Made by a program: the position numbers and the translations under genes
In this document: positions 28,595-31,381 of the stretch, piece after piece
Position numbering within the stretch: the stretch's first letter is position 1
How the letters are laid out: each line of letters begins with the position of its first letter
The notes under the pieces: model-generated
Told to the model about the DNA's origin: nothing
What the model saw: only the letters and a program-made list of their open reading frames with translations
Databases searched by the model: none
Assembly: GCA_019057635.1 (NCBI GenBank)
Contig: DXJL01000114.1
Coordinates: forward strand, 1 to 40,439
Reading direction: 5' to 3'
Source: Candidatus Heimdallarchaeota archaeon
GTDB lineage: Archaea; Asgardarchaeota; Heimdallarchaeia; Hodarchaeales; Hodarchaeaceae
DNA: 40,439 nucleotides

Positions 28595-28808
28595 TATAAA
28601 CATCCTCCACGTTCTTGACGTGAAATATTTTTCGTCATGCAAATTAGACTTTATTAAGGTATTAAAAACTCCTATTGAGTATATTAAGAAATACCTAATT
28701 GTAATAAAATCGAAAAGATTTCTGATATTTCGAAAATTTCGTTGATATGAATAAGAATGTATTCAATTCAAGCCCAATATGAATCAAAAATATCTCTAAG
28801 GTGGACCA

Positions 28809-29426
28809 ATGAAAATCATTGATATTTCTCTCGCAATGGAACAAAATATGGTAGTTTATCCAGGTGACCCTCAATTTAAACTGACTTCTGTGTTAGATAT
28901 CTCAAAAGGAGATAGTTTGAACCTCTCAGAAGTACAAATGGGAGTCCATACTGGGAGTCATCTTGATAGTCCTTTGCATTTTTTGAAAAAAGGAGAAAGT
29001 ATTACCGATATTCCACTAACAAGATTCTATGGCCGCTCTCAAGTCCTAGATTTGACATCTATTGAATTTGGGAATGAAATAACAGAGAAGCATCTAAAAA
29101 CGCAAGAATTTGACCCAGAATCTATTATTCTTTTTAAAACTAAGAATTCTAATATAATCAAGGGTGACTATAGAGAAGATTTTGTTTCTCTTTCATTAGA
29201 GGCTGCAAAATTCTTGATTAATTCAAAAGTTAAAACTGTTGGAATTGATTATCTTAGTATCGGTAGTACAAATACACACAAGTTATTACTTTCTAACGGA
29301 ACTATTATTTATGAAGGACTCGTATTAACTCATGTAACTCCAGGGATATATACCTTTATTGGTTTTCCTCTAAAAATGATAGGCAGTGAGGGAGCACCTA
29401 CTAGAGCTGTTTTAATTAAAGATTAG
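28809..29426 (+). CDS. cyclase family protein (kynurenine formamidase-like)
   Basis: YPGDP, HTGSHLDSP.H, VGIDYLS, EGAPTRAVL. Confidence 0.9.
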   Translation: MKIIDISLAMEQNMVVYPGDPQFKLTSVLDISKGDSLNLSEVQMGVHTGSHLDSPLHFLKKGESITDIPLTRFYGRSQVLDLTSIEFGNEITEKHLKTQEFDPESIILFKTKNSNIIKGDYREDFVSLSLEAAKFLINSKVKTVGIDYLSIGSTNTHKLLLSNGTIIYEGLVLTHVTPGIYTFIGFPLKMIGSEGAPTRAVLIKD

Positions 29427-29433
29427 TAATTAT

Positions 29434-29720
29434 TGGGTACTGCAATTACGGAATTAATAAGATCAAGAAAGATGATAGTGATACCTACAAAGCCATTGCA
29501 ATGATGAGACATGACTAAATTTGTCAGACAACCCTTTTAAAAAAGAGTTCTGGACAGGATGAGCCACACATCCGCTATCCGGCAGGCGAGAAAAAGATAG
29601 ACTTTTTTCCACCGTTGGGACTACTTGTGTTTACAACCCCGTCTTTGACGAGTAACACATCTAACCTAGTTTCGAGGGTGTCACATAGGGACAATGACAA
29701 TTCCGTAATCGCATTTCCCA
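29434..29720 (-). ncRNA. candidate structured non-coding RNA (~287 nt); alternative interpretation is a MITE
   Basis: 19/22-nt terminal complementarity (29434-29455 vs 29699-29720), several internal hairpins with G.U pairs on the minus strand, ~42% GC by hand count, TATA-like TTTAAAAG (29748-29741) about 20 nt upstream. Confidence 0.5.
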
Positions 29721-29950
29721 TGACATGCTAGGAGTAAGATCTTTTAAAGGTTTAAGAGAGAGAGGTTACTGAAACTGACATTGGTTTTGAATCCAAATAA
29801 GTTTCAGATTTCCATTTTTCAGATTAAATCGATCGTGGCTTTGGGGGTCATCTTTTTGGAAAATCAGAATACATATCTAATGAGCGAAAAACTAGTCGTT
29901 TAGCTCCATTATAAACAAAATTCATCATGAATCCATTTCAGTTGTGAAAA

Positions 29951-31381
29951 GTGAAGGTGCCCCTAATGAAGAACTATGATGTTATTATGATCGGATCAGG
30001 ATCCGCAAAGAGAATCATTGGTCGATTGATCAATAAGAATCCTGAAATAAGAATTGCTATGATCGATAAAGATGAACCAGGTGGAGTCTGCTCGATAAGA
30101 GGGTGTATTCCCTCTAAACGCTTGATTTATCCAGGAATAGTAATTAGAAATATTGAACATGCAAAAAAACATGGAATTACTGTTAACATTGAAAGTATTG
30201 ATTATAAGACAATAATGGGTAAAGTACAGGATGAGATTCAGTCTAATATTCAAAAAACTAAGTTCAAGTTTAACAATGCCACCCAAGTGGACTATTATCG
30301 TGGTGTAGGAGCTTTTGTAGACAACTATACAATCGAAATTAACAATGAAATAATAAAAGGGGATAAAATTCTATTATGTCTAGGAAGTGATATCTCAATT
30401 CCCCAAATTGTTGATATAGATTCAATAGAGTATCATACAAGCAAGACAATCTTCCTAGAAAATTCACTCCCAGAGCTTCCTAGAAGAATTTTAATTGTAG
30501 GAGGAGGGTATATTGCTGCTGAACTAGGTCATTTTTATTCAGCAATGGGTTCAGAGGTCATTATCATTGGTAGAAACCCTCAATTCCTTCCTCAGGAAGA
30601 ATCCGAAGTATCAAAATTAGCTAGAAAAATATTATCCAATTATCTTACCATTATAACAAATTCAGAAGTAACAAAAGCCCAAGCAACTGCAGATGGTAAG
30701 CAATTAATGGTTAAAAACCGTACATCAGGAGAAACTAAGTCTTATACAGGAGACGAAGTAATAATTGCGACTGGAAGACGATCGAACTCTTATCTCCTTC
30801 AGGCAGAAAAGTCTGGAGTTGAGACAGATAAGAGAGGATGGATTTTAGTTGATGAATATTTGGAGACCTCTCAAAAGAATATATATGCATTTGGAGATGC
30901 AAATGGAAAATTCTTACTTAAACACAAAGCCAATTATGAGACTGAAATTGTCTATAAGAATGCTTTCCTAAATAAACAAGAAAAAGTTGATTATCATGCA
31001 ATTCCTCATGCGGTTTTTACTTACCCAGAAATTGCTGCGGTTGGATTACGCCAAAAAGAAGCAGTAGAGCAATATGGAGAAGAGAACATATTGATTGGGA
31101 GTATTCGATATGAAAATACTGGGTATGGACAGGCTATGGAATCGAAAGATTTCTTTGTGAAAGTAATTACCGAAAAACACACGGCCAAAATTTTAGGTGC
31201 TCATATAATTGGGCCTTATGCAAGTATCTTAATACAAGAGATTATTACTCAACTGTATACAAAAGAGAGAACATTTTCTCCAATATTGAATGGAATGCAT
31301 ATCCACCCCTCGCTAAGCCAAGTAGTGGAAAGGGCGTTCGCACGCTTAAAGCCTGTTAACCAGTATACACCCCCAATATAA
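29951..31381 (+). CDS. class I pyridine nucleotide-disulfide oxidoreductase (dihydrolipoamide dehydrogenase / mycothione reductase-like)
   Basis: IGSGS FAD site, GGVCSIRGCIPSK redox disulfide, GGGYIAAE, C-terminal HIHPSLSQ. Confidence 0.9.
   Translation: MKVPLMKNYDVIMIGSGSAKRIIGRLINKNPEIRIAMIDKDEPGGVCSIRGCIPSKRLIYPGIVIRNIEHAKKHGITVNIESIDYKTIMGKVQDEIQSNIQKTKFKFNNATQVDYYRGVGAFVDNYTIEINNEIIKGDKILLCLGSDISIPQIVDIDSIEYHTSKTIFLENSLPELPRRILIVGGGYIAAELGHFYSAMGSEVIIIGRNPQFLPQEESEVSKLARKILSNYLTIITNSEVTKAQATADGKQLMVKNRTSGETKSYTGDEVIIATGRRSNSYLLQAEKSGVETDKRGWILVDEYLETSQKNIYAFGDANGKFLLKHKANYETEIVYKNAFLNKQEKVDYHAIPHAVFTYPEIAAVGLRQKEAVEQYGEENILIGSIRYENTGYGQAMESKDFFVKVITEKHTAKILGAHIIGPYASILIQEIITQLYTKERTFSPILNGMHIHPSLSQVVERAFARLKPVNQYTPPI

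What the first reader, a model, noticed from the sequence alone, without database searches (positions are those of the whole stretch)
29434..29750. Unannotated ~287-nt structured RNA candidate with its own TATA box
Seen: read on the minus strand, the 5' end UGGGAAAUGCGAUUACGGAAUU pairs with the 3' end AAUUCCGUAAUUGCAGUACCCA over 22 nt (19 Watson-Crick, 1 G.U, 2 mismatches). Internal hairpins lie at 29627-29658, 29575-29600, 29557-29573 and 29525-29552. At four imperfect positions the pair is G.U on the minus strand but A.C on the plus strand, which suggests selection on RNA folding rather than a DNA palindrome. GC is ~42% (hand count), visibly above other intergenic DNA here. TTTAAAAG at 29748-29741 would put a start site at ~29718-29721, right at the closing helix. 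Known: archaeal SRP and RNase P RNAs have similar size and paired ends, but I find neither the SRP helix-8 CAGG/GNRA/AGCA motif nor the RNase P GAGGAAAGUCC motif. Inference: an independently transcribed, possibly new ncRNA class. A 48-codon ORF (29721-29575, minus) overlaps it, so a dual-function RNA is possible.
Basis: partly seen in the sequence, partly recalled or inferred. Interest (0 to 1): 0.8.

Follow-up and report, generated by a model that had tools for sequence, protein, structure and literature searches.

The report
Worn TnpB mini-transposon, not new RNA
The "structured RNA" is a decayed, gene-less miniature copy of a jumping element that encodes the RNA-guided nuclease TnpB, and its hairpins are that nuclease's guide-RNA scaffold, so it is an ordinary member of a known kind and not a new RNA class.

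Summary
The unit they were taken to form is not real.

Window 29510-29837 (minus strand) is a 328-nt, internally deleted copy of a ~1.42-kb TnpB-only insertion sequence.
- The genome holds 6 such elements with tnpB between paired ends, 17 gene-less copies of 355-365 nt, and further solo ends.
The AUG is the tnpB start codon.
- Three of the four hairpins are helices P1-P3 of the conserved 3'-end scaffold, where TnpB guide RNAs (omega-RNAs) are encoded. Covariation over 38 copies supports this fold, and the window copy forms 38 of its 39 pairs.

A sister genome (95-98% identical flanks) has the empty site: one CATG inside an intact 311-aa 6-phosphogluconate-dehydrogenase-like gene.
- In the window that gene was split by the element, then lost ~810 nt.
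- The 3' arm of the "closing helix" lies outside the element, in the antisense pseudogene remnant, abutting the deletion junction.
- The helix is therefore young and locus-specific: 1 of 200 shuffles matches it.

No Rfam family matches. Transcription is not shown. Earlier notes of this scan describe the same CATG family in another Hodarchaeales genome. Verdict: new member of a known kind, low interest.

The parts
29510..29837 (-). 328-nt gene-less, internally deleted copy of the TnpB-only insertion sequence (MITE/PATE-like element)
   Evidence: Its pieces map in order onto the full 1421-1424-nt element. The sister genome G002 joins window 29513 and 29836 directly.
29815..29837 (-). Decayed left terminal inverted repeat
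   Evidence: 16 of 23 identical to the left end of the MITE consensus. It was not picked up by the TIR scan that allowed 4 mismatches or fewer.
29741..29748 (-). TATA box: relic of the tnpB promoter
   Evidence: Aligns with the TTA.AAG box, whose specified positions are invariant in 7 of 7 aligned copies. It lies 27 nt before the ATG, as in the full elements.
29699..29721 (-).
   Evidence: Aligns with the start of tnpB in the full elements. Inverted-repeat arm.
29619..29680 (-). Relic of the tnpB coding region next to RuvC motif I (element positions 758-823)
   Evidence: blastn 78-83% identity to three full elements. ORF residues 16-32 match TnpB residues 211-227.
29510..29627 (-). Omega-RNA-type scaffold overlapping the tnpB 3' end and the right end. 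Helices: P0 29618-29621/29577-29580; P1 29603-29613/29585-29595; P2 29569-29573/29557-29561; P3 29543-29556/29522-29536; candidate pseudoknot 29562-29567/29511-29516
   Evidence: Alignment of 38 copies and pair counts. The window copy forms 38 of 39 pairs. Coordinates.
29490..29509 (-). Predicted guide segment (flank directly 3' of the right end). The length is inferred, not measured.
   Evidence: Similarity among copies stops sharply after ...TTTAGTCATG. Placing the guide here follows published TnpB biology (inference).
29437..29513 (+). Pseudogene remnant of a 311-aa 6-phosphogluconate-dehydrogenase-like gene, part upstream of the insertion, with a frameshifting 4-nt gap
   Evidence: 82.7% identical to G002. 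Alignment.
29837..29911 (+). Last 25 codons of the same pseudogene, beyond the insertion
   Evidence: tblastn: residues 287-311, 92% identity.
29434..29455 (-). It lies outside the element, antisense to the pseudogene remnant.
   Evidence: The G002 version matches the 5' arm at only 15 of 22 positions (counted by eye).
29430..29437 (.). Junction of the ~810-nt deletion that removed most of the dehydrogenase-like gene
   Evidence: Window 28701-29430 matches G002 79-808, and window 29437-29513 matches G002 1625-1705.

Best explanation
Window 29510-29837 (minus strand) is a worn, gene-less miniature of a TnpB-only insertion sequence. That element is ~1.42 kb, has 22-nt terminal inverted repeats, and abuts CATG at both ends.

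The copy keeps:
- the left-end relic;
- the tnpB promoter (TATA box 27 nt before the former start codon);
- a scrap of tnpB coding sequence;
- intact, the ~118-nt folded module that overlaps the tnpB 3' end and the right end. This is where TnpB guide RNAs (omega-RNAs) are encoded.

It landed at a CATG 25 codons before the stop of a 6-phosphogluconate-dehydrogenase-like gene. That gene then decayed through an ~810-nt deletion and a frameshift.

Inferred mechanism: transcription from the relic promoter starts near 29721 and runs through the scaffold into the flank. This gives an omega-RNA whose guide is the ~16-20 nt after ...UAGUCAUG. TnpB made by the intact copies (C133, C152, C72) could use it in trans to cut the unoccupied CATG-plus-target site, which helps the element persist and does nothing for the host.

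The 22-nt closing helix is incidental. It is chance complementarity, possibly extended by templated filler DNA when the deletion was repaired.

Shown: homology, boundaries, empty site, covarying fold. Inferred: transcription, use by TnpB, CATG as the TnpB target motif.
For: Family and copy number
- The internal 118 nt recur at 78-92% identity across the genome (46 matches; 56 HSPs).
- 38 right-end-bearing copies other than the window's were anchored.
- Longer copies encode a 423-aa protein that scores 235 bits on NCBIfam guided_TnpB (cut-off 100), with Pfam OrfB_IS605 and Cas12f1-like_TNB.
- A scan for termini found 25 inward-facing pairs: 17 of 355-365 nt without ORFs, 1 of 255 nt, 6 of 1336-1424 nt with tnpB, and 1 coincidental.

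Anatomy of the window copy
- Its pieces map in order onto the full element: left end, TATA, ATG, positions 758-823, positions 1302-1421.
- ORF residues 16-32 match TnpB residues 211-227.

Structure
- 89.8% of cells are paired, against 35.6-46.7% when partners are slid.
- The covariation score is 0.261 against 0.053-0.107 slid; 0 of 500 shuffles reach it.
- 17 of 39 pairs change on both sides.
- G.U cells outnumber A.C cells 130 to 34.
- The window copy forms 32 Watson-Crick and 6 G.U pairs out of 39.

Empty site
- G002 is 98.1% and 95.0% identical in the flanks, lacks exactly 29514-29835, and carries an intact 311-aa gene there.

Literature
- Standalone omega-RNAs work in trans (PMC10691335, passages read).
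- PATE-like elements often encode omega-RNAs (10.1101/2023.03.14.532601, passages read).
Against: - Transcription is not shown. Only the right-end core (29510-29586) appears in one RNA-library contig, at depth 2 and with different flanks, so from another copy.
- This copy is more diverged than the others: 78-92% identity, left end only 16 of 23. It may be an inert fossil.
- No full-length partner with its particular P1 stem was seen in this genome. The nearest look-alike is L014, in another MAG.
- No transposase that could move the family was found. Y1 TnpA, DDE_3 and Cas1 had no match over their cut-offs; two serine recombinases sit beside distant TnpBs. The genome is 91.6% complete.
- The helix at 19 of 22 is reached by only 1 of 200 shuffles. 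'Incidental' is therefore a judgement, not a demonstration.
Confidence: 0.85

Rival explanations
1. Same identity, but a dead fossil. The copy is no longer transcribed or used, and its good fold is inherited rather than maintained.
For: - The left end is decayed (16 of 23).
- It is the most diverged scaffold in its own genome.
- No RNA evidence exists for the unique parts.
- No matching full-length partner of its subtype is in this genome.
Against: - The scaffold forms 38 of 39 pairs, among the best of the 38 copies.
- TATA box and spacing are intact.
- The insertion is no older than the split from a genome with 95-98% identical flanks, so there has been little time for decay either way.
Confidence: 0.4
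2. One reading: an independent, possibly new class of ~287-nt structured ncRNA closed by the 22-bp helix, perhaps recruited by the host from transposon debris.
For: - z = -4.6 on the minus strand.
- 19 of 22 pairing is reached by 1 of 200 shuffles.
- Compared with G002, 4 of the 5 differences in the 3' arm increase pairing (by eye).
- Intact promoter box.
Against: - The unit does not exist in the sister genome.
- The two arms derive from a tnpB start relic and from a pseudogene.
- The outer end of the 3' arm abuts a deletion junction.
- The '4 of 5' count is biased, because the best present-day 22-mer was chosen first.
- No homologue of the whole unit was found in its own genome or in 30 relatives.
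- The global MFE does not reproduce the covarying family helix P2.
Confidence: 0.04
3. The conserved hairpins act as DNA, not RNA: subterminal palindromes recognised on single-stranded DNA by a transposase, as at IS200/IS605 ends.
For: - P3 lies 12-47 nt from the right end, where IS200/IS605 ends carry their hairpin (recalled, and described in PMC3119063 passages).
- Compensatory changes would preserve a DNA hairpin as well.
Against: - G.U cells outnumber A.C cells 130 to 34. Setting aside the two near-invariant G.U pairs (31 and 38 cells), the count is 61 to 34.
- All one-sided changes in P2 are G.U-compatible on this strand.
- The module extends 118 nt into tnpB, with long-range pairs P0 and PK.
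- No Y1 transposase was found.
- This reading is not exclusive of the RNA reading.
Confidence: 0.15

Closest known systems
Standalone (effector-less) omega-RNAs and PATE-like gene-less derivatives of TnpB/OMEGA transposons. Sources: Altae-Tran et al. as summarised in PMC10691335; Meers et al. preprint 10.1101/2023.03.14.532601. Passages read in both.
   Same: - Gene-less and mobilised.
- Shares ends with tnpB-bearing elements in the same genome.
- Keeps the guide-RNA module, which would have to be used in trans by TnpB encoded elsewhere.
   Different: - This family has 22-nt terminal inverted repeats and CATG at both ends.
- It keeps the tnpB promoter and a start-codon relic.
- No TnpA was found in the genome.
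- Use in trans is not tested here.
PATEs of Haloquadratum walsbyi and their IS1341-type (tnpB-only) parents. Source: Dyall-Smith et al. 2011, PMC3119063, passages read.
   Same: - An archaeal, non-coding derivative of a tnpB-only element, made by internal deletion.
- Strain-specific insertions with contiguous empty sites in a sister strain.
- Some PATEs retain C-terminal coding remnants.
   Different: - PATEs are defined there as lacking terminal inverted repeats. This family has them, so it is formally MITE-like.
- Asgard (Hodarchaeales) host.
Haloarchaeal sotRNAs, which are omega-RNAs (Rfam RF02656 and RF02657, as described in PMC12558985, passages read).
   Same: A sense transcript overlapping the 3' end of tnpB, in archaea, with a conserved structure.
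   Different: No match to any Rfam model, neither at the gathering score nor in the E-value scans. The sequence and helices are different.
TnpB elements with symmetrical ends, linked to IS630-type DDE transposases (PMC10691335, passage read).
   Same: Symmetrical (inverted-repeat) transposon ends around a tnpB gene.
   Different: - No DDE_3 transposase was found in this genome.
- No TA duplication.
- Whether this TnpB belongs to that branch was not tested.

Membership tests
Gene-less TnpB mini-transposon carrying an omega-RNA module (standalone omega-RNA / MITE-PATE-like) | Both ends and internal pieces homologous, in order, to a tnpB-bearing element of the same genome | tested here: met
   left end, TATA, ATG relic, element positions 758-823 and 1302-1421.
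Gene-less TnpB mini-transposon carrying an omega-RNA module (standalone omega-RNA / MITE-PATE-like) | No protein-coding capacity | tested here: met
   The only ORF is 48 codons, has no Pfam hit, and is made of tnpB relics. The TnpB C-terminal relic lies in another frame (coordinates).
Gene-less TnpB mini-transposon carrying an omega-RNA module (standalone omega-RNA / MITE-PATE-like) | Dispersed copies with sharp common boundaries | tested here: met
   38 other right-end copies. 17 paired elements of 355-365 nt and 6 with tnpB. The window copy is itself a unique 328-nt variant.
Gene-less TnpB mini-transposon carrying an omega-RNA module (standalone omega-RNA / MITE-PATE-like) | Insertion polymorphism with a precise empty site | tested here: met
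   G002 joins window 29513 and 29836 at a single CATG.
Gene-less TnpB mini-transposon carrying an omega-RNA module (standalone omega-RNA / MITE-PATE-like) | Conserved folded module at the tnpB 3' end and right end, on the tnpB sense strand | tested here: met
   89.8% paired against 36-47% slid; covariation 0.261 against 0.05-0.11. G.U 130 against A.C 34; window copy 38 of 39 pairs.
Gene-less TnpB mini-transposon carrying an omega-RNA module (standalone omega-RNA / MITE-PATE-like) | The RNA is made, and is bound and used by TnpB | not testable with these tools
   Only contigs of public runs were available. One RNA-library contig covers the shared core of another copy.
PATE in the strict sense (PMC3119063) | No terminal inverted repeats; near-terminal palindromes; no target duplication | tested here: not met
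   The family has 22-nt terminal inverted repeats: 19 of 22 identical between the left-end consensus and the reverse-complemented right-end consensus. CATG stands at both ends and once in the empty site, so a 2-4 bp duplication cannot be excluded.
IS200/IS605 family in the classical sense | Y1 (HUH) TnpA transposase in the element or genome | tested here: not met
   PF01797: 0 matches in the own genome, which is 91.6% complete. The elements carry tnpB only.
IS200/IS605 family in the classical sense | TnpB (OrfB_IS605 / guided_TnpB) gene | tested here: met
   for the full-length copies. The window copy has only relics.
   No Rfam family at the gathering score in the window. Neither family is listed at E up to 10 in 29300-29950.
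Rfam sotRNA families RF02656 / RF02657 (haloarchaeal omega-RNAs) | Match to the covariance models | tested here: not met
   Not listed or 4 (window), nor (one full element and two mini copies, E up to 1).

The most novel reading that the evidence does not exclude
The family to which this copy belongs was mobile recently: the sister genome has an empty site. Yet no Y1 transposase, DDE_3 transposase or Cas1 was found in this genome. The elements carry only tnpB, have inverted-repeat ends, and abut a palindromic CATG. The boldest reading not excluded is that these Asgard elements move by a route not yet described for TnpB elements. That could be TnpB itself, a host enzyme, or an unlinked recombinase acting at the CATG. 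Promoter-bearing mini copies such as this one would then be guide-RNA satellites of that system.
Probability: 0.08. Interest if true: 0.6.

Novelty: new member of a known kind. Interest (0 to 1): 0.2.

Why it matters
- It removes a false lead: a strongly folding intergenic "RNA with its own promoter" in an Asgard archaeon turns out to be transposon debris plus a pseudogene scrap.
- It gives a clean, dated example of how such look-alikes arise. The chain is complete: insertion at a CATG inside a gene, gene decay by deletion, and a fortuitous long helix across the junction.
- Modest positive value:
  - a covariation-supported model of the guide-RNA scaffold for a Hodarchaeales TnpB family;
  - a defined empty site (CATG plus target), which gives a testable target motif and guide;
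  - a further case of a recently mobile tnpB-only family with no transposase in sight.

Tried and rejected
- Known RNA families. Rfam at gathering score found 0 matches in the window. In E-value mode only weak snoRNA-like and T-box matches appeared, all far below their gathering scores. Nothing relevant was found in one full element and two mini copies. No tRNA or tmRNA.
- SRP RNA and RNase P RNA: rejected on these scans. A GGAAAAAAGUC stretch that I first thought RNase-P-like is simply one strand of helix P1.
- C/D-box reading of the plus strand at 29496-29585 (snoZ30, 19.8 bits against a cut-off of 50): rejected, because the stretch is the reverse complement of the conserved transposon end.
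- Bacterial-type promoter and terminator scan: 1 promoter-like site against 1.7 expected, and 0 terminators. Uninformative for an archaeon.
- Expression. In the three RNA-labelled runs nothing covers the unique parts (29434-29509, 29587-29837). Only the shared core 29510-29586 is seen, with foreign flanks. This is no evidence either way.
- Outgroup for the 3' arm. The 311-aa dehydrogenase-like gene has a true orthologue only in G002 among the 22 genomes of the genus searched; the other matches are 36-41% identical paralogues. The changes could therefore not be polarised.
- Autonomous partner. No element with the same inverted repeats carries another gene. The one odd pair, C31:55324-56688, encloses part of an unrelated membrane-protein frame. 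The IS607-type elements on C54 and C56 do not share these ends.
- A covariance model of the scaffold was prepared (alignment A2) but not built. The apical part of P3 was aligned inconsistently there, and the pair counts on A1 already answered the question.
- Supplementary files of the papers were not opened. The PATE end tables of PMC3119063 and the extended data of Meers et al. might show closer parallels, for example PATEs that keep a promoter.

Full report
**1. The observation**

- The arms 29434-29455 and 29699-29720 are 19 of 22 complementary. One more position is a G.U pair on the minus strand.
- The minus-strand 288 nt fold at -88.7 kcal/mol, z = -4.6. The plus strand gives z = -2.7.
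- TTTAAAAG lies at 29748-29741, and the 48-codon ORF at 29575-29721.
- GC is 0.405-0.435 over 29500-29799, against about 0.29-0.33 just upstream. Coding DNA nearby reaches similar values.
- No Rfam family reaches its gathering score anywhere in the window. A permissive scan of 29300-29950 lists only weak snoRNA-like and T-box hits. There is no tRNA.

**2. A dispersed repeat with a TnpB parent**

A search of the window's own genome (214 contigs, 91.6% complete) with 29420-29760 gave 46 matches. A more sensitive BLAST gave 56 HSPs.
- Almost all cover window 29510-29627, at 78-92% identity.
- In seven loci a second piece (window 29619-29680) lies about 480 nt upstream.

Those loci encode 420-430-aa proteins.
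- One of them scores 235 bits on NCBIfam guided_TnpB (cut-off 100).
- It also carries Pfam OrfB_IS605 and Cas12f1-like_TNB.
- The genome has 20 matches to guided_TnpB, 14 of them over the cut-off.
- The RuvC-type motifs (IDLG, DEAYTSQ, NADYNAA) can be read in the sequences. That these are the catalytic motifs is recalled knowledge.

**3. Anatomy of the family**

The right end is sharp. Every copy ends ...GTTGTCTGACAAATTTAGTCATG, and similarity stops there.

Two families of gene-less copies (13 and 8 aligned) start with CATGATCA(A/T)TTTTGTCCGACAA. This is the inverted repeat of the right end: 19 of 22 identical between the two consensus ends.

A genome-wide scan found 96 such termini and 25 inward-facing pairs:

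| Pairs | Length | Content |
|---|---|---|
| 17 | 355-365 nt | no ORF |
| 1 | 255 nt | no ORF |
| 6 | 1336-1424 nt | tnpB |
| 1 | 1365 nt | coincidental; encloses part of an unrelated membrane-protein frame |

Two of the short copies (C182 and the start of C133) have identical flanks and are probably one locus assembled twice.

The full element reads as follows:
- left end;
- about 100 nt;
- a CTCTCTC tract and a TATA box (CTTATAAGAG);
- 27 nt;
- the tnpB start ATGGGAATGCG.

**4. The window copy**

Aligned to the family, the element runs from 29837 to 29510 on the minus strand, 328 nt.

| Window part | Corresponds to |
|---|---|
| 29815-29837 | left end, 16 of 23 identical |
| 29721 AUGGGAAAUGCG | the tnpB start, 27 nt after the TATA, as in the parent |
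| 29619-29680 | element positions 758-823 (coding region next to RuvC motif I) |
| 29510-29627 | element positions 1302-1421 (tnpB 3' end plus right end) |

- The 48-codon ORF is therefore a patchwork. Its residues 16-32 match TnpB residues 211-227. The relic of the TnpB C-terminus lies in another frame.
- The start region resembles the full element more than it resembles the two mini families.

**5. The structure is the guide-RNA scaffold**

I aligned 38 copies of the last ~118 nt plus flanks: the window, 10 from tnpB-bearing or partial copies, 12 + 8 mini copies, and 7 from other Hodarchaeales or Heimdall-group MAGs found with the protein. I left out six partial or poorly matching copies (C204, C111, C88, C207, C158, C145), the partial C72:6037, and the probable duplicate C182.

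- RNAalifold recovers P3 with strong covariation.
- A five-helix model (P0, P1, P2, P3 and a loop-to-3'-end pseudoknot) was counted:
  - 89.8% of 1480 cells are paired, against 35.6-46.7% with partners slid;
  - the covariation score is 0.261, against 0.053-0.107 slid;
  - 0 of 500 shuffles reach either figure;
  - 17 of 39 pairs show changes on both sides, a count that 34 of 500 shuffles also reach.
- P1 and the top of P3 are rebuilt with entirely different sequences in the different subfamilies.
- P0, P2 and the pseudoknot hardly vary, so they are consistent with the model but not proven by it.
- G.U cells outnumber A.C cells 130 to 34. Without the two near-invariant G.U pairs the count is 61 to 34. 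This favours RNA of the tnpB sense strand.
- The window copy forms 38 of 39 pairs.
- This module sits where TnpB omega-RNAs are encoded, and the guide is taken from the flank (PMC10691335 and PMC12558985, passages read). That this RNA is an omega-RNA is an inference from position, strand and structure.

**6. The empty site and the true nature of the 3' arm**

Among 31 genomes searched, G002 carries the same neighbourhood.

| Window | G002 (reverse complement of L116) | Identity |
|---|---|---|
| 28701-29430 | 79-808 | 98.1% |
| 29437-29513 | 1625-1705 | 82.7% |
| 29836-30700 | 1704-2568 | 95.0% |

- G002 thus lacks exactly the element. It reads ...GAGACATG|GTTTTGGGGG..., with one CATG where the window has CATG at one end and CGTG at the other.
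- Between the cyclase gene and the pyridine-nucleotide-disulphide oxidoreductase gene (Pfam), G002 has an intact 311-aa frame. By my reading it resembles 6-phosphogluconate dehydrogenase. This name is recalled from the sequence and from the 36-41% identical 473-496-aa frames in relatives; no family scan was run.
- In the window this gene is a wreck. About 810 nt are gone, with the junction at 29430-29437. A 4-nt gap shifts the frame. The element sits 25 codons before the stop.
It begins at the deletion junction.

**7. The closing helix**

- With G002's sequence, the arm would match the 5' arm at 15 of 22 positions (by eye). That is the modal value for shuffled flanks (14-15).
- The present 19 of 22 is reached by 1 of 200 shuffles. 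None of the other 23 elements reaches it against its own flank (range 14-18).
- Four of the five differences from G002 raise the pairing. This count is biased, because the best present-day 22-mer was chosen first. No outgroup exists to polarise the changes.
- Because the repeat ends exactly at the deletion junction, I favour this origin: chance microhomology (ATTAC.GAATT), extended by templated filler synthesis when the deletion was repaired. This is inference.
- Either way the helix is younger than the split from G002. It links transposon debris to pseudogene debris, and it has no homologue elsewhere in the genome.

**8. What moves the family, and expression**

Searches of the own genome for possible transposases:

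| Family | Result |
|---|---|
| Y1 TnpA (PF01797) | no match |
| DDE_3 | no match |
| Cas1 | best match 17.8 bits, below the 22.3 cut-off |
| Resolvase-type serine recombinase | two, each next to a distant TnpB (23-38% identical), with unrelated ends |

- Absence in a 91.6% complete MAG is not proof of absence.
- Public runs: the stretch is fully held only by the probable source sample. Three RNA-labelled runs hold only the shared core 29510-29586, with other flanks. Transcription of this copy is therefore untested.

**9. Comparison with what is known**

- Standalone, mobilised omega-RNAs that work in trans are described (PMC10691335, passages).
- PATE-like gene-less elements "often encode omega-RNAs" (10.1101/2023.03.14.532601, passages).
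- PATEs derived from tnpB-only elements by internal deletion were defined in a haloarchaeon, with strain-specific insertions (PMC3119063, passages). Strict PATEs lack inverted repeats and this family has them, so MITE-like is the better label.
- Symmetrical ends around tnpB are reported with IS630-type transposases (PMC10691335). None was found here.
- A search for TnpB together with Asgard returned 14 papers, 13 listed. I read only PMC10691335 and PMC12558985 from that list, so I make no claim that the family is unpublished.
- Earlier notes of this scan describe the same CATG-abutting ~362-bp mini-TnpB family in another Hodarchaeales genome and reach the same reading. I reached it here independently, before looking those notes up.

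**10. Verdict**

- Novelty: new member of a known kind.
- Interest: low (0.2).

Noticed in passing
window 29859-29934 (-): C/D-box-like candidate with a C box (AUGAUGA), a D box (CUGA) and a terminal stem. It scores 25 bits on SNORD64 (E = 0.021, gathering score 40) and 23 bits on SNORD30. It overlaps the last codons of the dehydrogenase-like pseudogene and the spacer before the oxidoreductase gene.
   Followed up: no
window 29430-29513 and 29837-29911 (+); G002 locus L116: A 311-aa 6-phosphogluconate-dehydrogenase-like gene is intact in the sister genome and destroyed here by insertion, an ~810-nt deletion and a frameshift. With this protein as query, the own genome gave no match at E <= 1e-20. 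10 of the 21 other genomes of the genus did, and 9 of those have only 36-41% identical 473-496-aa frames.
   Followed up: partly
G000:C54:5879-7419 (-) and G000:C56:27316-29189 (-): Two IS607-type pairs: a serine recombinase directly upstream of a TnpB that is 23-38% identical to the family studied. Downstream of the C54 tnpB there is a GGATAG.GGATG...CATCC motif resembling P2 of the scaffold.
   Followed up: partly
mini-element consensus A positions 179-244 and consensus B positions 196-290 (for example L087, L098): The two abundant mini families carry 65-95 nt of internal sequence with no BLAST match in the full-length element. The window copy lacks it. An earlier scan note calls a 'second conserved folded module' unexplained.
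   Followed up: no
window 29463-29495 and 29836-29860: The host sequences on the two sides of the insertion are weakly complementary to each other (two 13-nt stretches at 85%, I2 and I3). The element may therefore have landed in a palindromic part of the gene's 3' end. Significance was not assessed.
   Followed up: no
run X2, contig record 11: A DNA contig from another metagenome covers 29507-29900 with 11 differences, but its 99 letters beyond the right end do not fit the window at 85% or more. The same insertion seems to exist in a related population with a different (perhaps less decayed) flank.
   Followed up: no
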